Counted from the stretch's first letter, positions 39,285 to 58,933 are shown. The stretch is 64,000 nt of DNA from Acidimicrobiia bacterium (GCA_965231815.1 OZ246890.1:2833388-2897387); one strand, 5' to 3'. Notes: generated from the sequence alone by a model not told the origin. Numbers and translations are program-made.

Positions 39285-42200
39285 TCAGCCGGCGGGGTGT
39301 GGGTCGTCTGGGGGCAGGGAGGGGGGCAACCCGTCGACGGTGCGGACGGTGCGGACGGACACGGTGATCAGCCTGCATAGGTGTTCGATCAGGTTGTAGG
39401 GCTGGTTTGCCCAGGTGTGCCACCGGTTCGGGTCGCGGGTGATCCCGCTCGTTTTGTCATGGGTAGCCCGTAGACGGTCGATGGCCCAGCCGAGCGGGGT
39501 TTTCCCGTTGATCACATACTCGTGCGCTTCCGGGGGGATGTTTTCGATTCGGCACCGGTCGTTGACCACGAGCACGCTCAGGTCGTTGGTGAGTTTCTTG
39601 TCTTCGCCGCGGGTTCTGGCCCACCGTATCGGCTTGTGGATACGGTACACGTCGGGGCTGTCACGGTCCGGGTCGGCCGCCTGCCCGTCTACCAGCACTC
39701 GCACATGCGGATACGGTTCGCAGATTTCGTAGCCGACGTGTAGGTCGATCAGCTCCCGGCCCGCCTGGGCGAACGGCCAGAAGTCGTCGGTGTAGGGGAT
39801 ACGGGGTAGACCTTTGCGTAGATCGTTCGCGTATCTGGTTCGCCAGTCGGGGGCGTGCATCACTCCGTATATGTATGCCCAGATGTGGTCTTTGGTGATG
39901 GCAGGGTCCTGGTAGCGGCTGCGGAACTGGTTGAGGCACCAGTCGGTGATGTTGTCCACCCGGCCTTGGTCGTCGGGCCGGTCGCCGGTGGGGTCTAGGT
40001 CCCCCAAGTCCAGCATCGGAGTAGTGCCGGCGTTCATCGGCTGGTCTCCTTCGGATACGTGTACCGGGGGAACGCTTGTCCGTTGCCCATGAATTGGATG
40101 TCCGGAGGGATGTCGCTTATCAACGTCGAGAAGGGGCCTTTCCAGCCTGGTCCGGTCATGCTGATCACCTGATTCATCCGGTCGGGTGGGTGTATCGGGG
40201 GAACGCTTGTCCGCCTGACAGCAGATGCAGGTCCGGGGGACAGTCGCTGACGAGTGTTGAGAACCCGACCGATGCTCCCGGCCCGGTGATGTAGATGACC
40301 TGGTCGGTCGGTCGGTCGGTCGGTCGGTCGGTCGGTCGGTCGGTCGGTCGGTCGGTCGGATTATGATAGGAGGTTCTTGGCATCACCTGACCTTTGGACA
40401 CCAGCTCCAGGTCCGGTGCTGTGTCCGTCACCACCGTCGAGAACTCACGGGTCGATCCCCTCCCCGCTACGACTATCGCCTGGTTAGCGCCGTCGGGACG
40501 GTGAGGGAACATGAGCGGGACACGGTAGACCCGAGTGATGAACAGCGGGTCGTAGTAGAGCCACATCTTGGTGAACGGTCGGTAGTGGACTTCCCGAATG
40601 TTCCGTTCGTCGTAGGTGGCGGGCAGGCCGCGTCGTAGCGGTCGTCGCAGGTCACCCGTCCATTTGATGACATGTGGTCTGACGTTTCGGGTGGCTTGTT
40701 CGACTGTCGCCTCCCCGGTGCTCACACGGTGTCGTTGGTGTTCGTATTCGTCGACCATTGCTTCGGCCCGTTCTTCCAGACCGTCCTTGTCGTAGTCGTA
40801 CATATATGGGTCGCGACCGGTCGCGAGGCCGAGCGAGTAGATGTGGAACACGGTCGGGGAGTCAGCGCCCGATCCGGCCGACCCGCGCAGGGCTGCCTGT
40901 TTGGTGGTCTTGTCCCCGAGTGGCATTAGGTGTTGCCAGGTGGGGTCGGATTGGTTGATCCAGTCGTGGTTGCTGTCGGGTTTGATCCGTTGCCAGCCTT
41001 CCCCGTCGCCGCTCGTCGGCGCATGCCCCATGTCTTGGAGGGCCTGTTTTTCTGCTCTGCGGTCAGGTAGTCGCCAACATCGTGGTACCAGATGCGGGAT
41101 TGGCCGTCGGGATGTGGCTGCTGGGGGTGTTTGATCAGTACGGATACGAGTATGCCCACCCTCGTGCTGCTGCCGAAGACGTTGCCCTTTTCCCGCCTCC
41201 TGGCTTCTCCGGAGAGGCGGGCGTCGCCGCGTAGGTTGAGTAGGTACAGGCTGTGGTATTCGTCGGCTAGGCAGGCGCGCATGCCTGATTCGGCGTTGCC
41301 GTCGAGGTAGCCGTTGGGTGTGACGAAAGCGACGATGCCTTGGTCGCCGATGCGGTCGGTCGCCCACCTGATCGCCAGCTTGTACAGGTCCATCAGTTGC
41401 CTGCGGTTCTGGGTCTTGCTTTTCGCTGCGTAGGTGTCGCGGATGCGTTCCCGCAGTTGTGGGTAGACGATGTTGGGGTTGTCCTCAGCAGCGGATCTCT
41501 GTCCTGCGGACCAGGGCGGGTTCCCGACTATGATGTCGATGCGTTGGCCGGCTTGTTGTTCGGCCCGTCGGCTGTTGCCTGACAGGGTGTCGAACTGTTG
41601 CTGGTCGGGTTGGCTGTAGAACGTATCGCAGAGGACGATGCCTGCGAATGGCTTGTAGTCGCTATGTGGTAGTCGTTGGCGCCGTCCTTCTTCGATTTTG
41701 ACGGCGGCGATCTAGTAGGCCAACAGCAGCATTTCGTTGGCGTATATCTCGGCTGTGTATTTGCGGTCCAGGTCTTCGCCTGTGATAAGCGGCCGGCCGT
41801 TGCTGTCGTTGATGGTGAGTAGCCGGTTGATGAAGGTGCCGGTTCCGGTGAACGGGTCCAACACATGAACGTCGGGGTCTGATAGGGCCTTGCCGAAGTG
41901 GTGCTGGGAGAGCCGGTCGGCTGATCGGAGAACATAGTCCACCACCTTGATGGGGGTGTAGGCGACGCCGAGCCGGTCGGTTTCCCGTTTCATGCCTTTC
42001 GCGAAGAACGATTCGTACAGTTCGAGCAGGATTTTGAGGCGGCCTTCGGGGTCGGTGACCTGGCGGACCCGTTCGGTCACGCTGTCGTATAGGCGGTCGA
42101 GGCGGGCGGTGTCGGCTCGGATGTGGTCCCGGTCCAGCGTGTCCACCATCTGGTTCAACGCAGCAACAACCGGGTTGAGGGAAGCGAACGCGGCGGAGCC

Positions 42201-44588
42201 GAACAGGGCGTTGAACACGGGCAGCGTGACTATGTGGCAGGCCAACATGTCGACGAGGTCGGCTTCTTGTAGGTGTTCGTTGATCGTCTGACGCATCTCT
42301 GTGAGGAACCGTCCGAACGCTTCCGCAGTGTGCGGACGGGATCTGATGAGTCGGCTGATGCGGGCTGCGACGGTTCGGGTGACTTCTCCTACGTCGTCCC
42401 CCCAAGTCGCCCAATACGTGCGGTCCCCGCAGATTTCGACCAGCGCCGACGCGATTTCGGAGTTCATGGGGAGGGTCATCTGCGCAACGGTGGCAGGGTC
42501 CAACTCCCCACCGTTATCCGTGCCGTCGTCGTCGCCGTCGTCGCCGTCGTCGGTGCCGCCTATGACGTTTATGGGTGGTTTGCCGCCTTTGTCGGCGGTG
42601 TTGACCCACGCGTTCATCCGTTCGTCGTGGGATCGTAACGCCCGGATCACGTCCCAGACTGGCTTGAACCTTGGGCTGCGCAGAACGGCGTCGTCGATAC
42701 GGGTTTTCCCTTCGGGCAGGATGACGGGCAGGATGATGTAACCGCGTTCTTTCCCCGCGGCGGTTCGCATGACCCGTCCGACGGCCTGGACGATGTCGAC
42801 GATCGATCTGCGGGGGGCTAGGAACAGCACCGCGTCGAGGGCGGGCACGTCGACGCCTTCGGACAGGCAGCGGGCATTGGACACGACCCGGCACCGGCCG
42901 TCGGGGATGTCGGATTGAAGGTCGGCGATGGCGGTGGCCCGTTCCGACGCCCGTGTGGTTCCGTCCACATGGGTCACGTCCAACCCCAGCCGGCCGTTGT
43001 CGGCGCCGGAGGGTCGCTGTTCCGTGTATCCGTCGATGACGGGTTCCCACAGGCGGGAGAGCTGCCGCGACGCTTTGATGGTGTTCTGGAACGCTATAGC
43101 CCGTTTCACGGCACGGCCGGGGTTCGGGTTGGTCTGGCCGGTGCGCCGACCGTGGCCGGGTCCGCGGGAGAGCGGGTCGGCCATCGCGTCCCAGCAGCCC
43201 AGCATGGCCACCACATCGTCCGCTCGGATTTCTTCTCCGTGGTCCAGCTGGAGGGTGTTGACAACGTTGTCGGCCAGGTCGCCGTAAAGGCCCCGGTCGA
43301 CTGCGACTATCGCTACCTGATAGTCCGACAGCCATCCCCCATCGACTGCGGCCTTGAATGACATCTCATAGAACACGTCCCCGAACACGTTCGGGTCGTC
43401 CATCGAGAACACTGCGATGTCCTTCGAGCGGGCATTCCGTCTGGCCTGTGGGGTGTACAGGCGGGGCGTGGCGGTCATGTACAGACGGCGGTGTGCCCGT
43501 ATCTTCTGGTTGTCATGCACGAGGGTGAACGGGCTGACACCTTTCGTGGCGGTTTCGACTCCGGTGGTGCGGTGCGCTTCGTCACATACGACCAGATCGA
43601 ACACCGCTCCGGACTGCTGCTGCGCCGTGGCGACCCGGTCGAGTGACTGATATGTGGAGAACACCACCGTGGTCGCCCCGCCGCGGGTGGGGTTAGTGAG
43701 GGCTTGGGCTATATCTTCGGGGTCGGTAGTGACCGGAATCGACAGCTCAGTCAAATCCGACGACTCCGCGCCGCCCCGTTTCCCCGCGGTCCGATCCGAG
43801 CAGACACCCACATATGTTTGGACGGTGCGCCGCTGCGCCGCCCATTCCCGCATCGTCTGCCCCAGCAGCGAAATGGACGGGACCACATACAACACCGTCC
43901 CATCTGCGGGGACGGTCTGTTCGGCGATCCAAAGCGTCACCACGGATTTGCCTGTCCCACAAGGAAGGATCATCTGTCCCCTGCCGGCGCCAGCGTCGAA
44001 ACCGGCCACCACCGCGTCTATGGCGTCCTGCTGGTAGGGGTGCGGTTCGTACAGCACCCCCGGGATCGGGGCACGGTCGGGATCAGCAGCAAGTTCGGTC
44101 CAGGGAACCGGCCACTGCGCCAGATCCCCGTGATACAGCACACGGCATCCCGCCCCCTTCAGCTTCTTCGCCCCGGCCCGGGTAACCGGCGGAGAAGCCC
44201 GCGACGTCGAAATGAACATGCGATGCTGGAACCGGGCTGTGTTCGCTTTCGCCAAATACGAGTCCACATCCGCTTCCGGTGCGCGGGCGTCCCGATAGCA
44301 TTTCGTCTGGATCGCCCACCGGTCCCCGTCAGTGTCTGTCGCTATCAGGTCGATGCCCGAATCGGGACCGTCCCGTCCTTCCCACTCCCCCCAGGGAACC
44401 ACCTGGGTGAACCGGCCGCGGAACTCGCCCGGATGCTCTAGCAGCACCCGACACATCAACCGCTCGAACCTTCCGCCCACCCCACGCTGCGACGACGCCG
44501 ACCGCCGTATCGTCTCCAACGCCGCGTCCAGACCCGACAACGGTGGGACCAGCCGTTTCGACAGCCGCACCGCACCCATGTCACTCAT
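39285..44588 (-). pseudogene. disrupted Type ISP-like restriction-modification gene (Mrr-like nuclease - SF2 helicase/translocase - gamma-class N6A methyltransferase - C-terminal TRD)
   Basis: Nuclease motif (GIDLIA...WAIQTKCY) and helicase motifs (GTGKS; VVCDEAHRTTG). MTase motif I (VLDPFTGTGTF) lies before an in-frame TAG at 41709-41711, and motif IV (IIVGNPPWSAG) lies after it. There is a frameshift at a T5/A5 run near 41046-41050. A (GGTC)14 tract lies at 40302-40357. Three degenerate ~114-nt coding repeats follow (FSTxVxDxxPDLxLxSxGQxxPRY), with 1-nt frameshifts near 40180 and 40050. The C-terminal fragment (YIYGVMHAPDWRTRYANDLRKGLPRIPY) is typical of Type IIG/ISP enzymes. Confidence 0.7.
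40302..40357. repeat. (GGTC)14 tetranucleotide simple-sequence repeat inside the R-M coding region
   Basis: 14 uninterrupted GGTC units, read as (PTDR)n on the minus strand. Unit gain or loss changes the downstream reading frame. Confidence 0.85.
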
Positions 44589-50572: not shown

Positions 50573-50908
50573 CCACCGCTCTCCACCAAGCCGTGTCCGG
50601 CCACGTTGGACATGCGCCCTGATGCCGGCAGGGCGGCCACTTCGGCGATATCCCCCGGTTTCGCAGCCCTGCCAACCGGAATGCGAGACTCGATTGCGGT
50701 CCGGAGGTCAGATTGGTCCGACAGCCACTTGGTCATCGGGGTCCACCATACCCGGACCAACCCGGCGAGCGCCCACACGCGCAATCGCGACAAATCGAGG
50801 CGCCGAGTCGATTCACGATGGCAGCATCCGTGTATCCTCCTTGCGGGTGCCGACGAAATCGGCTTGTTGACTGGTCAGTGTGGAGCCGGGTTTTGGCCGG
50901 GGGGGGGG

Positions 50909-51838
50909 TTATGACGCGGTAGCGGTGGTGGTTGTTGTGGTGTAGGGGGTGAGGATTGTGTCGGCGGCTTCGATCATCGGAGCGCACACCGGGTGATTGG
51001 GGTCGCCGAACTCCATAATGTAGAACTTGGTTCTCCACGCGTACCAGCGGACGTTTATGGCTGCTTCACCTATTTCACGGATGTCCTGAACAGATGAAAC
51101 TCCCAGATTCGCCAACGCTTGGAGGTCGGCGCTGTGTACCCTATCGTAGTAGTCATAGGACAGCAAGTCCGGGTTTACTTGGAGCAGGCCCGGCTTGAGT
51201 TTGGTGATCGTGGCGACCATCTTGTCGAAACCGGAGCGACCCGGTTCAACTTCGAAGGTCGGATCACGCAGAGCCGCATCTATCAGGAAGGCCTCTTCGG
51301 AATTGTAGAGGCCTTCGTCTCGACTATCGTAATCCCAAGAAGGATCATCATAAACCATCTCAATTCGGAAAGTCTTGGCGCATTCGGTGGCGGGTAAGCC
51401 CTCCCAGGTGCTGGGTAGGCGGTGGTCCCAGGTGGGGTGGTGAACCCGGCGAGGAACCGATCTGTCCGAAGTAGTGGTCGTGACGGACAGTTGTGGGGCA
51501 GTGGTGATAGTTGTAGTCGTCTGGTCGTTTTGTGCAGGCGAATCGACTTCGGGTTCCGGTTGGGATAGTGGAGTTGTGTGATCGGTCACCGAGATGCCTC
51601 CCGTCCCGCCGTCGCTAGCCACGTCGTAGCCGCCTGAGGGGTCGAGCCATCCCGCTACGGTGGTGTCCGTCACCGCGAAACCGTCCTCACCGGTCGTCGC
51701 GGTTGTCTGCTCAGGAACCGTTGTCGTGGTGTTAGTGCCGTCGCCCTCGGTACCCATTGCGGAGACCACCGACAGCACGACCAACCCGCCGACCAGTACA
51801 CCGGCGACCGCGACAGCCCAGACACCGAAGCTGTTCAC
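50909..51838 (-). CDS. secreted/anchored Thr-rich protein, tandem paralog 1 (unknown C-terminal domain)
   Basis: Signal-anchor (WAVAVAGVLVGGLVVLSVVSA), a T/D-rich region, and a conserved C-terminal domain. ~75-80% nt identity to the adjacent gene, including ~60 nt of 3' flank. Confidence 0.6.
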   Translation of the reverse strand: MNSFGVWAVAVAGVLVGGLVVLSVVSAMGTEGDGTNTTTTVPEQTTATTGEDGFAVTDTTVAGWLDPSGGYDVASDGGTGGISVTDHTTPLSQPEPEVDSPAQNDQTTTTITTAPQLSVTTTTSDRSVPRRVHHPTWDHRLPSTWEGLPATECAKTFRIEMVYDDPSWDYDSRDEGLYNSEEAFLIDAALRDPTFEVEPGRSGFDKMVATITKLKPGLLQVNPDLLSYDYYDRVHSADLQALANLGVSSVQDIREIGEAAINVRWYAWRTKFYIMEFGDPNHPVCAPMIEAADTILTPYTTTTTTATAS

Positions 51839-51931
51839 CGTGTTTGCACCTCTCGCCCTCCTCGCCGGTTCCGATCATATCGGCTTGTTGACTGACTCGG
51901 TGTGGAGCCTGGTTTTGGCCGGGGGGTGGTT

Positions 51932-52852
51932 TTATGACGTGTAGGGGGTGAGGATTGTGTTGGCGGCTTCGATCATCGGAGCGCATGACGGGTGATTGGG
52001 GTCGCCCCATTTGTTGATTAGGCGATTCACCCTCCATGTGTACCAGCGGACATTGGCGGCGGCTTCGCCCATGTTACGGATGTCCTGTACAGACGAAACC
52101 CCAAGGTTCGTCAACGCTTGGTGGTGAATGTCGTATGTCTCGTTGTAGTAGTCGTAGGACAGCAAGTCCGGGTTTACATCTAGTAGGTACGGGTTTAGTT
52201 TGGTGATCGTGGCGACCATCTTGTCGAATCCGGAGCGGCCGGGTTCAACTTCGAAGGTCGGGTCACGCAGGGCCGCGTCTATTAGAAAGCTTTCGGCGGT
52301 TCCGTAGAGGCCTTCCATCCGAAGGAAATCATCCCAGGCATGCCATGCACGACGTATCTTAACTCGGAAGGTATTAGCGCATTCGGTGGCGCGCAACCCA
52401 CCCCAGGTGCTGGGTAGGCGGTGGTCCCAGGTGGGGTGGTGAACCCGCCGAGGAACCGACCTGTCCGAAGTAGTGGTCGTGACGGCCAGCGGCGGGACAG
52501 TGGTGATAGTTGTACTGGTCGGGTCGCTTTGTGCGGCAGGGTCGGTGGTTTGTTCCGATCCGGAAACCGGAACGGTGGTATCGGTTACCGAGATGCCTCC
52601 CGTCCCGGCGTCGCCAGCGGCAGTGTCGTAGTCGCCTGATGGGTCGAGCCATCCAGCCACCGTGGTGTCCGTCACCGCGAAACCGTCCTCACCGGTCGTC
52701 GCAGTTGTCTCATCGGGAAGGACCGTGGTGGTGTTGGCACTGTCGCCCTCGGTACCCATGGCGGAAACCACCGACAGCACAACCAGCCCGACGAGCAGTA
52801 CACCGGCAACCGCGGCAGCCCAGAAGCTGCGACGGTTCGCTCGTGGTTGCAT
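51932..52852 (-). CDS. secreted/anchored Thr-rich protein, tandem paralog 2
   Basis: Same architecture as 50909-51838. The duplicated unit is ~1.0 kb. Confidence 0.6.
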   Translation of the reverse strand: MQPRANRRSFWAAAVAGVLLVGLVVLSVVSAMGTEGDSANTTTVLPDETTATTGEDGFAVTDTTVAGWLDPSGDYDTAAGDAGTGGISVTDTTVPVSGSEQTTDPAAQSDPTSTTITTVPPLAVTTTTSDRSVPRRVHHPTWDHRLPSTWGGLRATECANTFRVKIRRAWHAWDDFLRMEGLYGTAESFLIDAALRDPTFEVEPGRSGFDKMVATITKLNPYLLDVNPDLLSYDYYNETYDIHHQALTNLGVSSVQDIRNMGEAAANVRWYTWRVNRLINKWGDPNHPSCAPMIEAANTILTPYTS

Positions 52853-52961
52853 CCATCCTCCTGATTTCCGTGTTCTGGTTGTTGCCGGTTGCGGTGTTAG
52901 TGTAGCGGTCCGGATTCGATACCGTCCGCGGGTGCGGTTGTCGGTTGAAGGAGGGCAAGGC

Positions 52962-55900
52962 TTGGTTCGTCGGTTTTCGTTGGTCGGTTTGTTGTGGACT
53001 GTCGGGCTGGTGTCGTTATTCGTGGTTTCCAGTGTGAGTACCTCGTGGTCGGGTGCTCAGGCGCCGGGTTCGACTACTTCCACGACGGTGTCTCCCTATG
53101 AGCCTGATCCGAAGGGTTTGGTTGCGCATGTCGACCGGTTGCGGCGTCATTCGTTGGGTACGGATGTGTGGCAGGTGTGGGTGTGTGAACTCGAGGAGGA
53201 GAAGCTGACGCTTGATCCTGAAGAGTTGGTTGAGGAGTGGGAGAGGGAGATCAGACCGTATTTCTGGTGGCTTTCGGATAAGCGTTATAACCCGGTGTTC
53301 GTAGCGGGCGGCGAACCGGTATCGGCCAACGTTGAAAACACGGGTATAGAAATCGTGGAGATGGCTTGCGCTGAGGCGGTGGAACATGCGGTCGAGTCCG
53401 GCGGGTCGCTTGTTTCGGGGGCGGAAGCGACGGAGCCGAACGGGGTGATCATCGTGGTCAACTCCAACAGAATCGGTCCAGCGTCTCGTTCAGCCTTGGG
53501 TATCGGAAGCGGTATGTCGGTTGGTGATCCGTGTTTAGAACCAAGACCTGCTGCGGGGTGTGATTCGTTTCCTGGGAATGGTCGGTATGTGATGGTGGCG
53601 GGCGGGCGTGTTGTTCCCGGTATTGGTCAGCGACGGTTGCTGGTGGCGCATGAGATGGGGCACACGATCGGGTTTCCGCATTCTCATGCCTCCGATGACA
53701 ATAAGTATGACAATCCGATGGATGTGATGAGCAATGCTTTTCGTCATGTGTATGAGGATCGTCGGGGTGTGTGGAGGAGCAAGTTGAGGGTGGGGACTAT
53801 CGGGGTGAACAGGTATCAGGCTGGTTGGGTCGATCCTGGTCGGGTTGTGGATGATCATCCGGGTGGTGTGGCGGTTACTTACGCGTTGGTTCCCCCGGGG
53901 TTTTCTCGGGGGAAGTCTTTGCTTCCGGTGGGGACGTTACCGGAGTTGATGGCGTTCAAACGGCAGGCGGGGGTGTTCGTGTCGTTGGGTGCTCGGGTGG
54001 CTGAGGGTTACGACTCCGAAATCGCCGTGAAGCCTATCGGTCATGACGCGGGGACGGGAAAGGTGGTGGCGGCGGGGCAGGAGGGGGTGGAGGTGTATGT
54101 GGTTGATCAGCGAACGACGCAGTGTGGCGCAAACTACAGTGTTGACGGTGCGTGTATCTCTGTAGTGCGGGCTACCACTCAGTCTCCTGCGAATGGTTTG
54201 TCGACGGATCATGTGTATGGGGTGGATCAGGAATTCGTGACGGGGGCATACCGGTTCGGTGGGTTGCTGATACCGGGGTTCGGGGTTCGGGTCGTGGAAC
54301 GGGTGAACGACGCTTGGTTGCTTCGGGTCACGCCACCGAGCGGCGCCGCCGGGCCTTTCAACGATATCTCCGGGAACAGCGACCGGTTCCGTATCGAGTT
54401 GTTGAAGTGGTTGGATATTACGAGTGGGTGCGGTTCCGGTGTGGGGTATTGCCCTTCCAGGGTCACGAACCGGGCGGAGATGGCGGTGTTTCTGGTGCGG
54501 GCGTTGGGGAAGGATCCGGTTCTTAAGTCTGAGAAGCCGACGTCAACGTTTGGTGATGTGCTTCGGTCGTATTGGGCGTGGGGGTATATAGAACGACTGC
54601 ACGAGTTGGGGATCACTCAGGGCTGCGGGCGTTCTACAGATAGAGTTAAGCGTTACTGCCCGGAGTCGCAGGTGACGAACGGGCATGTAGCCGTGTTCGT
54701 GGTACGGGCCTTGGAAAAAGACAAGTCGCTGCCCACCGCAGGGCAGACATTCGGGGATGTTCCCCCCACCCATTGGGCGCACGGTCACATCGAACGTCTC
54801 GAAGAACTCGACATCGCTATCGACGTCGAAATGCGCGGGAAACGGTACTTCTCTCCCGACGCCAAAACCCGCCGCGGTGCCGCGGCTCGCCGGTTGACCG
54901 AAGCCGCGGTCACCCTGCAAGACGTTTCGCACACGCCGGTTATTGACGGTGACGCACCGTCCATGCCTCTCAACGTAACTGTCGGAGGCGTGTGGGATCT
55001 GAGTTGGGATCCGCCCGCCGCGTCGAGTCCCGGACCCACGGCCGGATACGAAATCTCATACGGACTAGTCGACGGACCCGGTTGGATCGCTTCGGTCGGC
55101 GACACCGAAACCGTGGACCTGTACACCTTCGTAGATGACAATAGGGGTAAGACACTGTACGCGAAGGTTCGGGCGTACAACAACCACGGAGCGTCAAGAT
55201 GGGCAGCCGCCCCAACGATCATAGCCCCACCCGTCGCGCTGGGGGTGCCGCCGGCGCCTACCAACGTCAAAGCAGTGTCGAACACCGCAGGCCGGGTCAC
55301 CCTCACCTGGAACCCACCCCCCACACCGAACATCGCCGCAACCGAAGCTAACAATGGTGATGACGACCTCACCGCGATCGTCGGTTACCGGATCCTCCGC
55401 AAACCGGTCGGCGACGAAAACACATTCGAGGTCATCGCTGCGAACACCGCCGCCACCGCCACCACCTACACCGACACCACCGTCACCCCCGGCGTTCGAT
55501 ACCAGTACCGGATCCACGCCATCAACAAAGGCCGGCTCATCAGCACCCAAGGCTCCACGGTAGAAGTCACCGTCAAATCCCCACCCACCACCACAACAAC
55601 CACCGTCCCGACAACAACCACCACCGAAGCCGCCACCGGGCTGACCCTATCCGTTTCCGACGCTACCGCCACAGAAGGCGAAACCATGGTGTTCAACGTG
55701 TCGTTGAACAAAGAACCACTCGGTGTCCAAGTAGTAGTCAACTACCAATCACAACCCGTCACCGCCACCGCCGGAACCGACTACATCGCACCGAGCGGAA
55801 CATTCATCTTCGGACCCTACGAAACCCGAAAAACCATCAGAGTAGGCATCAGAGACGACAACAGAACGGAAGAAACCGAAACCTTCCGAATCACCCTCTC

Positions 55901-55964
55901 ACAACCCTACGGCGCCACCATCACAAAACCCATCGGCACCGGCACCATCACCGACAACGACTAA
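52962..55964 (+). CDS. large cell-surface protein: metzincin-type Zn metalloprotease + 3 SLH-like domains + 2 FN3-like domains + Thr-rich linker + Calx-beta domain
   Basis: HEMGHTIGFPH matches the HExxHxxGxxH metzincin motif. Three SLH-like repeats (FGDVLRSYWAWGYIERLHELGITQGC...YCP...VTNGHVAVFVVRAL). Calx-beta at the C-terminus (ATEGETMVFNVSLNKEPLGVQVVVNYQSQPVTATAGTDY...DDNRTEETETFRITL). Start set at a TTG 6 nt after the GAAGGAGGG RBS; the upstream part of the ORF is antisense to paralog 2. Confidence 0.7.
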   Translation: MVRRFSLVGLLWTVGLVSLFVVSSVSTSWSGAQAPGSTTSTTVSPYEPDPKGLVAHVDRLRRHSLGTDVWQVWVCELEEEKLTLDPEELVEEWEREIRPYFWWLSDKRYNPVFVAGGEPVSANVENTGIEIVEMACAEAVEHAVESGGSLVSGAEATEPNGVIIVVNSNRIGPASRSALGIGSGMSVGDPCLEPRPAAGCDSFPGNGRYVMVAGGRVVPGIGQRRLLVAHEMGHTIGFPHSHASDDNKYDNPMDVMSNAFRHVYEDRRGVWRSKLRVGTIGVNRYQAGWVDPGRVVDDHPGGVAVTYALVPPGFSRGKSLLPVGTLPELMAFKRQAGVFVSLGARVAEGYDSEIAVKPIGHDAGTGKVVAAGQEGVEVYVVDQRTTQCGANYSVDGACISVVRATTQSPANGLSTDHVYGVDQEFVTGAYRFGGLLIPGFGVRVVERVNDAWLLRVTPPSGAAGPFNDISGNSDRFRIELLKWLDITSGCGSGVGYCPSRVTNRAEMAVFLVRALGKDPVLKSEKPTSTFGDVLRSYWAWGYIERLHELGITQGCGRSTDRVKRYCPESQVTNGHVAVFVVRALEKDKSLPTAGQTFGDVPPTHWAHGHIERLEELDIAIDVEMRGKRYFSPDAKTRRGAAARRLTEAAVTLQDVSHTPVIDGDAPSMPLNVTVGGVWDLSWDPPAASSPGPTAGYEISYGLVDGPGWIASVGDTETVDLYTFVDDNRGKTLYAKVRAYNNHGASRWAAAPTIIAPPVALGVPPAPTNVKAVSNTAGRVTLTWNPPPTPNIAATEANNGDDDLTAIVGYRILRKPVGDENTFEVIAANTAATATTYTDTTVTPGVRYQYRIHAINKGRLISTQGSTVEVTVKSPPTTTTTTVPTTTTTEAATGLTLSVSDATATEGETMVFNVSLNKEPLGVQVVVNYQSQPVTATAGTDYIAPSGTFIFGPYETRKTIRVGIRDDNRTEETETFRITLSQPYGATITKPIGTGTITDND

Positions 55965-56242
55965 ATATCTATAACCTCTAATCGACAAGTACGAGACCGT
56001 CGCGTTTCGTGGTGTGGGCTGTTGTCGCGGGTGGTCTTGGGTATAGCGGCGGGTTGTTTGGTGTCTGTGATGGTTCCGGGTTGAACCTTGTTCGTTGGAT
56101 GGAGAAATCAGACATGGGGGATCTACCCCGAGACTTTCTTGCCGTCCGCCGGGGTCCGCCGAGGTTACCTTCTCTCACGGAGATTGTCGGCTATCGTCAC
56201 GGTGCAAAGTGCCCAACGCTTCTGGGGAAGGTGAATTACAGG

Positions 56243-57301
56243 ATGGCCGGAATCGTACACATCGTCGGGACGGGAACTATCGGAGAGCCCCTCATCGGGC
56301 TCATGGCGGATAACCAAGAAGCCTTCGGGATCGACGAGGTTACCTTCCACAAACGAACCCCCCTCCTGCTAGAGCGGGGAAAGGTCAATGATCTGGTAAG
56401 GCGTGGCGCCCGACTCTCGGTGGACGCAGACCGGTGGTCCGGATTCGAGGAACTGGGCCATGCCCCCAAACTGGAGGCATGGGAGGCTATCGAGCGGGCC
56501 GACGTAGTGGTCGACTGCACGCCGGCAGGCAATGCCAACAAGGAAAAGTACTACCGACACGCAACCGAGGTCGGCGGTTTCCTGGCTCAGGGATCGGAGT
56601 TCGGCTTCGGGAAGATGTACGCCCGCGGGATCAACGATGAGGCTCTGGTCCGAGAGGAGGACCGCTACCTCCACATCGTCTCATGTAATACCCATAACAT
56701 CGCGGTACTTCTCAAAACCCTCGGGTTCGATCAAGACGGCGCCAACCACGTAGTCGAGGGGACTTTCCTGTGTATCAGGCGGGCCAACGATATCAGCCAA
56801 GCCGGGAAGTTTATCCCCGCCCCGGAAGTCGGGACCCATCCCAAAGGTCGTTTCGGGACTCACCACGCGAAAGACGCCCACCACCTATTCCAGACTATCG
56901 GCCACGAACTCGACCTGTTCTCATCCGCTCTCAAAGTGAACAGCCAATATATGCACGCGCTCCACTTCGAGATCGTTCTCGACAAGGAGATAACCGTTTC
57001 AGAGGCCCAGGAGAGGCTGGAGGCCAACCCCAGGGTGGCCATTACCTACAAGCGGTCCGCCAACCAGATATTCTCCTTCGGTCGGGATCATGGCTACTAC
57101 GGGCGGATCCTCAGCCAGACCGTCGTTCCGGTCGAGACCTTGACGGTGCGCGGCGGCAACAGGATCGTCGGTTTCTGCTTTACTCCCCAGGACGGCAACC
57201 CGATGCTCTCCACGGTGGCCGCCACACTCTGGTACCTGCACCCGGGCGGGTTCGAAGAGCGGCTGAACGTGTTGAGGCGCTACATATTCCCCGAGGTTTG
57301 A
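56243..57301 (+). CDS. type II (archaeal-type) glyceraldehyde-3-phosphate dehydrogenase-like oxidoreductase
   Basis: N-terminal VHIVGTGTIGEP Rossmann motif and catalytic-Cys motif VSCNTHNIAVLLK (compare SCNTT in archaeal GAPDH); ~352 aa. Confidence 0.45.
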   Translation: MAGIVHIVGTGTIGEPLIGLMADNQEAFGIDEVTFHKRTPLLLERGKVNDLVRRGARLSVDADRWSGFEELGHAPKLEAWEAIERADVVVDCTPAGNANKEKYYRHATEVGGFLAQGSEFGFGKMYARGINDEALVREEDRYLHIVSCNTHNIAVLLKTLGFDQDGANHVVEGTFLCIRRANDISQAGKFIPAPEVGTHPKGRFGTHHAKDAHHLFQTIGHELDLFSSALKVNSQYMHALHFEIVLDKEITVSEAQERLEANPRVAITYKRSANQIFSFGRDHGYYGRILSQTVVPVETLTVRGGNRIVGFCFTPQDGNPMLSTVAATLWYLHPGGFEERLNVLRRYIFPEV

Positions 57302-57379
57302 TCTTGATGATACGCAGCGACCAAGCCTTCAATACCTGAACCGCTTGTAATGGTTAACTCTCCTTAGGTCGAATAGGCA

Positions 57380-58933
57380 GTGGATACACGCCGCCGTTGG
57401 TGGGCACGGGTCGGGTCTCGGTCGGTGCCTTACTTGGCCGCCTTGACGATCTTTTGTGCCTCTTTGCAGGTTGGCATACCCGCGGGCGCGTCTCAGGGTT
57501 TCTGGGATATCGGAAGAGCCCGCTTCCATACTCCTGCGGTTTCTATTCTCGACCACATAGGCATCATCGACGGTACCGAGTGTGACGAGGGTCGTTTCTG
57601 TCCTGACGGTTTCATGAACCGATGGGTGATGGCGGTATGGATCTACCGGGCTCTCGATCTTGATGAGCCTGAAGAGGAAGAGAGCGGCACCTTTTCCGAT
57701 GTGGGCGGCTCCTGGTGGTCCGGCCATGTGAACCGGCTGACGGAATCGGGAGTAACGGTGGGCTGCGACGAGGGCTCGACCATGTATTGCCCGTACCGGG
57801 TGGTGACACGTGGGCAGATGGCGAGTTTCCTGGTCCGGGCATTCGACATCCCATCGGCTGACAGTTCGATTTTCACCGACACAGATGGGGACGTTCACGC
57901 GGAGAATATCGAAGCTCTTGCAGCCCACGGGATAACCGGAGGCTGCGCCACCGACCCGGACCGCTACTGTCCGAACGCACCGGTTACCCGAGGTCAGATG
58001 GCGACCATGCTGGCCAGGGTACTGGGTTTGGTACCCCCGGCTCGGTTCAGCGACGCGGTGGAGACGTATTCTATCGGTCACCTAGTGTCGCAGTTCACCA
58101 CCTACTATCGATGTTGCCAGAACAGGGTGGTCAACATCCATCGCTTCGCGGACAAACTGACCGGCGCGGTGGTTGCTCCTAAGGAGAGCTTCAGCCTCAA
58201 TCGATACATAGGTAGACGAACCAGTGCGGACGGGTTCCGCGCCGCCGGTACCCTGATAAGAGGCAGGCTGGTCAACACGGTCGGCGGTGGGGTGAGCCAG
58301 GCAGCCACCACCTTTTACAACGCGATGTTCTGGGGAGGGTATCAATCGGTATCCCATAAGCCTCACAGCATCTACTTCCCCCGCTACCCCGAAGGTATCG
58401 AAGCCACCATTAACTGGCCGGATATAGATCTGGTGTTCCGCAATGACACTTCCGATCACATTCTGATCGTGGCTAGCTACACCCCAACGTCGCTAACCAT
58501 CGCGTTCTACGGAAACAACGATGGACGGGTATTGGTGGGGGATTGGGAGGACGGGGAAGGCGCCATGACGGTGGTGTCGGAAGGAGGGGCCGGGGCGCGG
58601 GTCGTGGGCGCAACGGTGTCGGAGCGTTACCGCTGGCGATCTCCACCTGCGCCGCTCGTACTCACGGATGCCAACCTGGGGTTCGATGAGCGGAGGGTGG
58701 TCCAGACGGCTCAGGTAGGTTGGTCGGTCAAGGTCACTCGCACGGTCGAAGTACGGGGGAGCGCGTCGACGCAGGACTGGACCGTTCGGTACGTGCCGAG
58801 GCAGAGGATTGTGGTGGTTCATCCCTGTACCTTGACGGATTCCTGTACGGTTCCCGATGAGGAAGGTACCGTGGAAGAGGAAGACCCGGTACCGGAAGAG
58901 GTAGGGGAGGAGTTACCGGTCTCGCCGATCTGA
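57380..58933 (+). CDS. secreted protein with 3 SLH-like domains and a VanW domain
   Basis: Signal peptide. Three SLH-like repeats with a GC...YCP insert (WSGHVNRLTESGVTVGCDEGSTMYCPYRVVTRGQMASFLVRAF). VanW core (GGGVSQAATTFYNAMFWGGY). Confidence 0.65.
   Translation: MDTRRRWWARVGSRSVPYLAALTIFCASLQVGIPAGASQGFWDIGRARFHTPAVSILDHIGIIDGTECDEGRFCPDGFMNRWVMAVWIYRALDLDEPEEEESGTFSDVGGSWWSGHVNRLTESGVTVGCDEGSTMYCPYRVVTRGQMASFLVRAFDIPSADSSIFTDTDGDVHAENIEALAAHGITGGCATDPDRYCPNAPVTRGQMATMLARVLGLVPPARFSDAVETYSIGHLVSQFTTYYRCCQNRVVNIHRFADKLTGAVVAPKESFSLNRYIGRRTSADGFRAAGTLIRGRLVNTVGGGVSQAATTFYNAMFWGGYQSVSHKPHSIYFPRYPEGIEATINWPDIDLVFRNDTSDHILIVASYTPTSLTIAFYGNNDGRVLVGDWEDGEGAMTVVSEGGAGARVVGATVSERYRWRSPPAPLVLTDANLGFDERRVVQTAQVGWSVKVTRTVEVRGSASTQDWTVRYVPRQRIVVVHPCTLTDSCTVPDEEGTVEEEDPVPEEVGEELPVSPI

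What the first reader, a model, noticed from the sequence alone, without database searches (positions are those of the whole stretch)
50909..58933. Surface-protein cluster with SLH-like domains, a metzincin, a Calx-beta domain, a VanW domain and a recent tandem gene duplication
Within 8 kb lie two ~1-kb tandem paralogs (signal-anchor + Thr-rich + unknown C-terminal domain), a ~1000-aa protein (metzincin HEMGHTIGFPH + 3 SLH-like + 2 FN3-like + Thr-rich linker + Calx-beta), and a 517-aa protein (3 SLH-like + VanW). An archaeal-type GAPDH-like gene sits in between. The SLH-like modules suggest anchoring to a secondary cell-wall polymer or S-layer, which is notable for an Actinomycetota-like genome. 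The duplicated unit includes 3' flank, with a G10 homopolymer just 3' of paralog 1 and G6TGG at the same position in paralog 2. This indicates recent duplication with slippage-prone flanks.
Basis: partly seen in the sequence, partly recalled or inferred. Interest (0 to 1): 0.6.

Follow-up and report, generated by a model that had tools for sequence, protein, structure and literature searches.

The report
Sponge-symbiont wall-anchored protease plus variable gene array
This stretch of a sponge-associated actinobacterial genome encodes a cell-wall-anchored zinc protease next to a fast-changing tandem array of exported proteins with an unrecognised fold, a lineage-specific surface module flanked by two ordinary genes, not one recently duplicated cluster.

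Summary
Two tandem paralogs are 74% identical in protein. A 1000-aa protein carries an HExxHxxGxxH motif, three SLH repeats, two fn3 domains, a Thr linker and Calx-beta. A 517-aa protein combines SLH and VanW. There is a distant type-II-GAPDH relative and a G10 tract. The SLH calls pass Pfam's threshold and match the solved Sap SLH domain.

The interpretation needs correcting. The duplication is not recent: paralog dS is 0.44, against about 0.05-0.13 between sister genomes that already carry the array. The 8 kb is not one unit. The GAPDH-like gene is a housekeeping gene found across Acidimicrobiia. VanW belongs to a peptidoglycan LD-transpeptidase family, here with Ser replacing the catalytic Cys, as in five other actinobacterial sequences examined.

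The conserved unit is the metzincin-SLH gene transcribed divergently from an array of one to five paralog copies. It occurs in seven genomes of sponge-associated Acidimicrobiia, in at least three genomic contexts. The paralog family is tiny (26-28 proteins in billions searched). Its C-terminal domain is confidently modelled, all-alpha and without a PDB match. The arrays turn over faster than their neighbours. Function is inferred, not shown.

The parts
50735..50816 (-). Degenerate remnant of the 5' end (start codon and signal-peptide region) of a further paralog copy, at the end of the array
   Evidence: It aligns with the 5' ends of par1 and par2, and is conserved in L002 and L019. An 81-82-aa fragment gene sits at the same place in L019.
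50836..50908 (-). Duplicated 3' flank of par1, including the G10 (C10 on the coding strand) tract at 50899-50908
   Evidence: Tract length varies between copies and genomes (C6, C6, C10, C14).
50909..51838 (-). Paralog 1 (309 aa). Order of parts: N-terminal hydrophobic signal or anchor ending VVSA|MG, two VTDTT-type motifs, Thr-rich disordered stalk, all-alpha C-terminal domain (residues 125-303, two invariant Cys), Thr tail
   Evidence: dS to its positional counterpart in L002 is 0.40, against 0.04-0.13 for flanking genes.
51932..52852 (-). Paralog 2 (306 aa), same architecture as paralog 1
   Evidence: It is 97-98% identical to its ortholog in L002, dS 0.042.
52853..52961 (.). 109-bp divergent intergenic region between the paralog array and the metzincin-SLH gene
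   Evidence: Essentially identical (97-100% per 200-nt block) to L002. No sigma-70-type promoter consensus was found.
52962..55964 (+). 1000-aa exported multidomain protein. Signal or anchor 52965-53063; metzincin-fold region about 53094-54344, with zinc motif HEMGHTIGFPHS at 53649-53684 and Met-turn candidate YDNPMDVMS at 53706-53732; three SLH repeats 54357-54908; two fn3 domains 54957-55580; Thr-rich linker 55581-55640; Calx-beta 55641-55961
56243..57301 (+). 352-aa divergent type-II-GAPDH-like dehydrogenase with the catalytic VSCNT motif kept. A housekeeping gene, not part of the surface module
   Evidence: dN/dS is 0.04. It is absent from the other module loci.
57380..58933 (+). 517-aa exported SLH-VanW protein. 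SLH repeats 57500-58027; VanW domain about 58121-58510; GGGVSQ (Ser at the catalytic-Cys position) at 58283-58300
   Evidence: PMC11348318.

Best explanation
The region contains three things.

(1) A lineage-specific cell-envelope module of sponge-associated Acidimicrobiia. Its first part is a secreted zinc protease of the metzincin fold. The protease is held on the wall by three SLH repeats and extended outward by two fn3 spacers, a Thr-rich linker and a terminal Calx-beta domain. Its second part, transcribed divergently, is a tandem array of about 300-aa exported proteins. Each has a signal or anchor, two VTDTT motifs, a Thr-rich disordered stalk and a 170-aa all-alpha domain with no recognisable relative.

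(2) An unrelated housekeeping type-II-GAPDH-like dehydrogenase.

(3) An SLH-anchored VanW-domain peptidoglycan enzyme of the actinobacterial Ser type.

Proposed working:
- The SLH triples bind a secondary cell-wall polymer non-covalently. This is inferred from the family's known mechanism.
- That binding places the protease and the VanW enzyme in the wall.
- Calx-beta and fn3 face the sponge matrix. This is inferred from the reported enrichment of these domains in sponge symbionts.
- The array proteins are displayed on, or shed from, the surface on mucin-like stalks (inferred).
- The array grows and shrinks by unequal crossing-over between 1-kb units, and individual slots are overwritten by recombination. 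This is shown by copy numbers of 1 to 5, by identical copies in one genome, and by dS 0.40 at one slot against about 0.05 in the flanks.
- The likely result is variation in what the cell shows to its host or to phages (inferred).
- The protease may process the array proteins. This is inferred from linkage only.
For: Domains:
- Pfam hits above threshold for SLH, fn3, Calx-beta and VanW.
- The SLH profile matches Sap at 2e-24.
- HExxHxxGxxHS and YDNPMDVMS are invariant in 11 homologs.
- The AF2 model of the N-terminal region matches fragilysin and ADAMTS metzincins (E 3e-4, probability 1.0).

Linkage: the protease gene and the array are adjacent and divergent in W, L002, L019, L005, L006, L007 and L012. 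These lie in at least three genomic contexts, and protease identity falls to 44%.

Array dynamics:
- Copy numbers are 2, 2, 3, 4, 2, 5 and 1.
- In L007 the period is 1213 bp and three copies are 100% identical.
- The par1 slot has dS 0.40 against 0.04-0.13 for the flanks.
- L005 and L006 share a 95.6% identical protease, but their paralogs are only 75-78% identical.
- A truncated extra copy is present.
- dN/dS of 0.3-0.45 shows these are real, constrained genes.

Family rarity: 26 hits among 5.8 billion clusters and 28 among 1.84 billion representatives with a profile.

Fold: pLDDT is above 90 for residues 125-303. The best Foldseek E-value is 2.6 against PDB and 3.0 against BFVD.

Envelope link: several family members carry true SLH domains ahead of the same C-terminal domain.

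Context:
- Relatives come from MAGs titled Candidatus Spongiisociaceae or Acidimicrobiia.
- fn3 and Calx-beta are enriched in sponge-symbiotic Acidimicrobiia (PMC11706023).
- The GAPDH-like gene has more than 6797 homologs at 70% identity or more across the class.
Against: - No experiment or expression data support any step. The function of the all-alpha domain is unknown.
- Paralog arrays exist without the protease within 8-10 kb in the distant-member loci L008-L011 and L013, and in L020, a much closer relative (about 55% identity) (L014 covers the same place as L011). More distant metzincin-SLH homologs lack array neighbours. Coupling is therefore not obligatory.
- No csaB-type pyruvyltransferase is present in the window.
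- The first SLH repeat of each protein is too divergent for the Pfam model when scanned alone.
- The metzincin region fails every Pfam and NCBIfam peptidase threshold, and its AF2 model is only moderate (pLDDT 71).
- Whether the paralog N-terminus is a cleaved signal or a membrane anchor was not tested.
- The sponge origin of the window itself is inferred from the record titles of relatives.
Confidence: 0.55

Rival explanations
1. One reading: a single surface-protein cluster whose paralogs arose by a recent duplication, with slippage-prone homopolymer flanks acting as a switch.
For: The tandem units include the 3' flank and are 78% identical. G10 is the only long G/C homopolymer in the window, and its length differs between copies and genomes.
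Against: Paralog dS of 0.44 is about 3 to 10 times the divergence from sister genomes that already have the array. The tract lies after the stop codon, so it cannot switch the reading frame. The GAPDH-like and VanW genes are not linked to the module elsewhere.
Confidence: 0.1
2. Protease-partner pair: the array proteins are dedicated inhibitors, chaperones or substrates of the neighbouring metzincin. From memory, serralysin proteases are similarly encoded next to their inhibitor.
For: Divergent adjacency is kept in seven genomes and at least three contexts while protease identity falls to 44%. The conserved VTDTT motifs and the invariant RRVxHPTWDxRLP boundary could be recognition or cleavage sites. 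The weak structural resemblance of the protease region to O-glycopeptidase Amuc_1438 (E 1e-3) fits Thr-rich partners.
Against: Arrays occur without the protease nearby at six other places, and the protease occurs without arrays. Copy number ranges from 1 to 5 against a single protease gene. Profile comparison shows no relation between the two families. The Amuc_1438 alignment has rmsd of about 15 A.
Confidence: 0.15
3. The all-alpha domain is itself an enzyme or glycan-binding module acting on the cell wall or on host polysaccharide. The array is a set of isozymes rather than a set of variable surface antigens.
For: Polar residues H134, D138, R140, R254 and R264, plus W137 and W265, are invariant, E196 is nearly invariant, and there is a conserved Cys pair. 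Purifying selection is acting (dN/dS 0.3-0.45). Some members are fused to SLH or fn3.
Against: No match to any Pfam, NCBIfam, PHROG or PADLOC family, or to any PDB or BFVD fold. Rapid slot replacement is unusual for a housekeeping enzyme.
Confidence: 0.15
4. Chance neighbourhood or mobile or phage-derived cargo with no envelope role.
For: In L012 the module lies next to IS21-type transposase genes. In L020 the pair lies next to a fragment of an isocitrate-dehydrogenase-family (Iso_dh) gene.
Against: No PHROG or PADLOC hits. All components carry export signals and wall-binding or extracellular domains. Linkage is conserved across contexts.
Confidence: 0.03

Closest known systems
SLH-anchored surface proteins of Firmicutes (B. 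anthracis Sap/EA1, G. stearothermophilus SbsB, P. alvei SpaA)
   Same: Both have three tandem SLH repeats. The family profile matches Sap at 2e-24 and SbsB at 3e-16. TR[AG][EQ]-type motifs are present in two repeats of the VanW protein, and an NRAE motif in one repeat of the protease.
   Different: In the protease the SLH triple is internal, not terminal. Most repeats carry a GC...YCP cysteine pair. The first repeat is degenerate. The host is an Acidimicrobiia symbiont. No csaB gene is in the window, and the ligand is unknown.
Fragilysin (BFT) and ADAM/ADAMTS-type metzincins
   Same: The HExxHxxGxxH zinc motif is present with a conserved Met downstream. The predicted fold matches at E 3e-4 to 1e-3 with probability 0.99-1.0.
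   Different: Sequence identity is 9-14%. The region scores below every Pfam and NCBIfam peptidase threshold. It has an extra beta-rich domain and then SLH, fn3 and Calx-beta. Only about 10 homologs were found.
VanW-domain LD-transpeptidases (C. difficile Ldt4/Ldt5; PMC11348318)
   Same: The VanW domain scores 129.6 bits. The residue aligned to the proposed catalytic Asp (D111) is kept in all nine sequences and the aligned His (H90) in eight of nine.
   Different: Ser replaces the catalytic Cys (GGGVSQ against GGG[IV]CQ). Five other Actinomycetota VanW sequences share the Ser. Wall targeting is by SLH rather than PG_binding_4. Activity of the Ser type is untested.
Eukaryotic-like fn3 and Calx-beta proteins enriched in sponge-symbiotic Acidimicrobiia (PMC11706023)
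   Same: The protease carries two fn3 domains and one Calx-beta domain, and relatives come from sponge-associated Acidimicrobiia.
   Different: That study counted domains. It does not mention SLH or a metalloprotease (no occurrence of those terms in its main text).
Akkermansia O-glycopeptidases (Amuc_1438, OgpA)
   Same: There is weak structural and sequence resemblance around the zinc site. Both are associated with Thr-rich, mucin-like proteins.
   Different: The alignments are poor (rmsd about 15 A; sequence E 0.26). This is a lead only.

Membership tests
SLH domain (PF00395) | Score above Pfam's gathering threshold | tested here: met
   28.8 bits (protease) and 41.6 bits (VanW protein) against a cut-off of 20.8.
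SLH domain (PF00395) | Three tandem repeats forming one wall-binding unit | tested here: inconclusive
   Repeats 2 and 3 score 19.8-27.2 bits when scanned alone, and repeat 1 scores nothing. The family profile does align across the whole three-repeat SLH regions of Sap and SbsB.
SLH domain (PF00395) | A CsaB-type pyruvyltransferase in the genome to make the ligand | not testable with these tools
   No PF04230 hit among window ORFs of 200 aa or more. The rest of the 4.08-Mb chromosome was not available.
Metzincin clan | Extended zinc motif HExxHxxGxxH | tested here: met
   HEMGHTIGFPHS is invariant at H, E, H, G and H in 11 homologs.
Metzincin clan | Met-turn below the zinc site | tested here: inconclusive
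   YDNPMDVMS is conserved 9-17 residues after the third His. Its position in the 3-D model could not be inspected.
Metzincin clan | Metzincin catalytic fold | tested here: met
   Foldseek top hits are fragilysin and ADAMTS1/4/5, E 3e-4 to 7e-3, probability 0.95-1.0. The model pLDDT is 71.
Peptidase M10 / M12 families (Pfam) | Score above the family threshold | tested here: not met
   Reprolysin_5 19.2 against 27; Peptidase_M10 14 against 24; Reprolysin_2 13.1 against 27.
Calx-beta (PF03160) | Score above threshold | tested here: met
   60.9 bits against 27.
fn3 (PF00041) | Score above threshold, two copies | tested here: met
   42 bits against 25, in two stretches.
VanW LD-transpeptidase (PF04294; PMC11348318) | VanW domain above threshold | tested here: met
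   129.6 bits against 27, with the full-length profile covered.
VanW LD-transpeptidase (PF04294; PMC11348318) | Catalytic Cys of the Cys-His-Asp triad | tested here: not met
   Ser sits at the position of the only conserved Cys in the Bacillus, Paenibacillus and Deinococcus sequences. The aligned His and Asp are kept.
Type II (archaeal) GAPDH (NF003251 / TIGR01546) | Score above the equivalog cut-off | tested here: not met
   76.8 against 185, and 56.8 against 232.9. The catalytic VSCNT and HHAKD motifs do align.
Recent tandem duplication | Paralog divergence lower than divergence from the nearest sister genomes | tested here: not met
   Paralog dS is 0.44 against 0.04-0.13 for orthologous flanks. 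The array is present in L002 and L019.

The most novel reading that the evidence does not exclude
The metzincin-SLH gene and its neighbouring array form a previously undescribed symbiosis surface system of sponge-associated Acidimicrobiia. In this reading a wall-anchored protease matures or sheds rapidly diversifying, mucin-like proteins whose head domain is a new fold. The Calx-beta and fn3 arm docks to sponge matrix components. Together they set how the host, or phages, recognise the symbiont.
Probability: 0.15. Interest if true: 0.65.

Novelty: new variant of a known kind. Interest (0 to 1): 0.4.

Why it matters
How sponge symbionts are told apart from food bacteria is an open question, and current evidence is mostly counts of 'eukaryotic-like' domains. 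This locus offers a concrete, conserved gene pair to test. One partner is an SLH-anchored protease with fn3 and Calx-beta. The other is an orphan protein family, restricted to these bacteria, with a confidently predicted unknown fold, variable copy number and fast allele replacement. The locus also shows that six of six actinobacterial VanW domains examined carry Ser where the characterised LD-transpeptidases carry the essential Cys. That bears on what this large enzyme family does in Actinomycetota. If none of this holds up, the region is simply a set of lineage-specific envelope genes beside housekeeping genes.

Tried and rejected
- Recent duplication: rejected on dS and synteny.
- Homopolymer as a frame switch: rejected, because the tract lies after the stop codon.
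- Phage or defence origin: no PHROGs, PADLOC or BFVD matches.
- Structured RNA, promoter or terminator in the intergenic regions: no Rfam hit, and the consensus scans were no better than shuffled sequence.
- The all-alpha domain as a diverged SLH or a piece of the protease: hhalign probability 0.2%.
- Neighbours of distant metzincin-SLH homologs (L021-L023): none belongs to the paralog family.
- The 260-bp indel between the protease and GAPDH-like genes relative to L002: no repeats found.
- csaB: not found in the window.
Full report
OBSERVATION

- Paralog 1 is 50909-51838(-), 309 aa. Paralog 2 is 51932-52852(-), 306 aa. They are 74% identical in protein.
- At DNA level the units 50836-51822 and 51857-52824 are 78% identical over 993 columns. 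Each unit includes about 73 nt after the stop codon.
- G10 at 50899-50908 lies directly after the par1 stop codon. It is the only G/C homopolymer of 8 nt or more in the window. The equivalent position after par2 reads G6TGG.
- The large gene starts at TTG 52962, behind a GAAGGAGG ribosome-binding site, and encodes 1000 aa. This matches the 1001-1002-aa orthologs called in sister genomes.
- Pfam for the large protein gives Calx-beta 60.9 bits, fn3 42 bits in two stretches, and SLH 28.8 bits. Pfam for the 517-aa protein gives VanW 129.6 bits and SLH 41.6 bits. All are above the curated cut-offs.
- The two paralogs match nothing in Pfam, NCBIfam, PHROGs or PADLOC.

SLH

- They pass the Pfam thresholds.
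- A profile of the protease family matches the solved SLH regions of B. anthracis Sap (E 2e-24) and SbsB (3e-16). The VanW protein alone matches Sap at 2e-8.
- Scanned singly, repeats 2 and 3 of each protein score 19.8-27.2 bits, while repeat 1 is too divergent to score.
- No PS_pyruv_trans (CsaB) domain occurs among window ORFs of 200 aa or more. The rest of the genome was out of reach.

METZINCIN

Pfam and NCBIfam peptidase hits all fall below threshold. The positive evidence is as follows.
- Eleven homologs keep HExxHxxGxxHS and a downstream YDNPMDVMS invariant.
- An AF2 model (pLDDT 71, pTM 0.74) retrieves fragilysin, ADAMTS1/4/5 and, more weakly, the Akkermansia O-glycopeptidase Amuc_1438 (E 3e-4 to 1e-3).

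I therefore call it a metzincin-fold protease of an unassigned family. Only 10 homologs of the N-terminal region were found, and nine of the ten carry SLH (the exception is a 414-aa protein on a 1.9-kb contig).

ORGANISM

Family members lie on complete chromosomes of MAGs titled Acidimicrobiia or Candidatus Spongiisociaceae. Spongiisociaceae is a sponge-derived family of Actinomycetota. Sponge-symbiotic Acidimicrobiia are reported to be enriched in fn3 and Calx-beta proteins (PMC11706023). SLH/CsaB is described as retained in 'a few' Actinobacteria and has been noted in some orders. SLH here is therefore uncommon but not unprecedented.

WHAT BELONGS TOGETHER

A sister genome (L002, 4.14 Mb) has the whole region in synteny: ftsK, E2, GNAT, two paralogs, protease, GAPDH-like, SLH-VanW, rimO, cinA. 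A third genome (L019) has the same locus with three paralogs.

Further away, only two parts stay together. The protease gene, at 44-54% identity, lies divergently next to one to five paralog copies in L005 (4 copies), L006 (2), L007 (5) and L012 (1). The surrounding genes differ between these loci.

The GAPDH-like and VanW genes are not present at those loci.
- The GAPDH-like protein has more than 6797 homologs at about 70% identity or more across Acidimicrobiia.
- It is 99.4% identical between sister genomes, with dN/dS 0.04.
- It keeps the VSCNT and HHAKD motifs of archaeal GAPDH.

It is a housekeeping enzyme that happens to sit here.

THE PARALOG FAMILY

Size and spread:
- A sequence search of 5.8 billion clusters found 26 members.
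- A profile of the C-terminal domain searched against 1.84 billion representatives found 28.

Architecture:
- a hydrophobic N-terminus ending in a conserved VSA|MG-like site;
- two to four [VT]TD[TS]T motifs;
- a Thr-rich segment (25-28% Thr);
- an invariant boundary HPxWDxRLPxT;
- a 170-aa domain with two invariant Cys;
- a short Thr tail.

Structure: AF2 gives pLDDT above 90 for residues 125-303, all helical, and disorder for residues 1-124. Foldseek finds nothing in PDB (best E 2.6) or BFVD (best E 3.0).

Variants: some members insert true SLH domains (39 bits) between the signal and the VTDTT motifs. Others add fn3 domains or a second copy of the C-terminal domain. These variants tie the family to the cell envelope.

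AGE AND DYNAMICS OF THE DUPLICATION

- Between the window and L002, flanking genes have dS 0.04-0.13 and par2 has dS 0.042. Par1 against its positional counterpart has dS 0.40 (dN/dS 0.30). Par1 against par2 has dS 0.44.
- The duplication therefore predates the split of these genomes several-fold.
- The par1 slot holds a non-orthologous allele. The identity profile drops to 76-81% across par1 between flanks at 97-99%.
- L005 and L006 share a 95.6% identical protease, but their paralogs are only 75-78% identical.
- In L007 three of five copies are 100% identical, with a 1213-bp period.
- A truncated 5' end of a further copy closes the array in the window, L002 and L019.
- The poly-C tract after the stop codon is 6, 10, 6 and 14 nt in the four copies compared.

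Taken together, this is a long-lived array that expands, contracts and exchanges alleles. It is not a recent one-off duplication.

VANW

VanW domains were shown in 2024 to be LD-transpeptidases with an essential Cys in a Cys-His-Asp triad (PMC11348318).
- The window protein has GGGVSQ where Bacillus, Paenibacillus and Deinococcus have GGG[IV]CQ.
- Streptomyces, Tsukamurella, Nonomuraea, Nocardia and Rhodococcus VanW also have Ser at that position.
- The aligned Asp is conserved in all nine sequences and the aligned His in eight; Nonomuraea has Met there.
- The seven foreign proteins tested in that paper come from Firmicutes genera.

Ser-type activity is therefore unknown. I treat the protein as an SLH-anchored peptidoglycan-active enzyme of uncertain reaction.

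MECHANISM

Shown:
- domain content;
- export-type N-termini;
- conserved protease-array linkage;
- array dynamics;
- purifying selection on the paralogs.

Inferred:
- SLH-mediated wall anchoring;
- outward display of Calx-beta and fn3 and of the stalked all-alpha domains;
- a role at the host- or phage-facing surface;
- possible processing of array proteins by the protease.

The linkage is not universal. Arrays occur alone at L008-L011, L013 and L020 (L014 covers the same place as L011), and distant protease homologs lack arrays.

VERDICT

The region is a lineage-specific envelope module plus two ordinary neighbours. Interest is moderate. It rests on an orphan family with an unrecognised fold and rapid turnover, linked to an SLH-anchored metzincin in sponge symbionts.

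Noticed in passing
window 58283-58300 (GGGVSQ); also L015, L018, L024, L025, L026: All six Actinomycetota VanW domains examined have Ser where the Bacillus, Paenibacillus and Deinococcus sequences have Cys, the residue shown to be essential for LD-transpeptidation. The aligned Asp is kept in all nine sequences and the aligned His in eight of nine. The papers read did not mention this.
   Followed up: partly
window 39285-44588 (-): A Type ISP restriction-modification enzyme appears split into three consecutive ORFs. 41712-44588 carries the Mrr nuclease, helicase and coupler domains. 40174-41367 and 39285-40037 carry the two halves of the Type_ISP_C specificity domain. No methylase domain was seen, so the gene is probably disrupted.
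   Followed up: no
window 56243-57301 (+): A 352-aa type-II-GAPDH-like family is conserved at 70% identity or more across Acidimicrobiia, with more than 6797 hits. It has no Pfam domain on record and scores far below the NCBIfam GAPDH cut-offs, yet keeps the catalytic VSCNT and HHAKD motifs. Its substrate is unverified.
   Followed up: partly
window 50735-50816 (-): A remnant start (GTG, then a VNRLG... signal-peptide-like region) of an additional paralog copy lies between par1 and the GNAT gene. It is conserved in L002 and L019, and in L019 it is called as an 81-aa gene.
   Followed up: yes
window 56080/56081 versus L002 5458-5716: The sister genome has about 260 bp more between the protease and GAPDH-like genes. 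No direct or inverted repeats were found in that interval.
   Followed up: partly
L007 2421-5858 and 12077-13318: The protease ortholog in this genome replaces Calx-beta with two copies of an unannotated domain of about 110 aa, separated by long Thr runs. A protein that looks, by eye only and without a Pfam scan, like a secreted Amidase_2/PGRP-type amidase lies just beyond the five-copy array.
   Followed up: no
L020 8589-12611: A tandem paralog pair sits between a 125-aa fragment and a full-length gene of the isocitrate/isopropylmalate dehydrogenase family (Pfam Iso_dh). This suggests insertion with partial target duplication. No protease gene is nearby.
   Followed up: no
window 54400-55400: Within the protease gene, the SLH and fn3 region is 83-92% identical to the sister genome, while the catalytic region and the Calx-beta end are 96-99% identical.
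   Followed up: no
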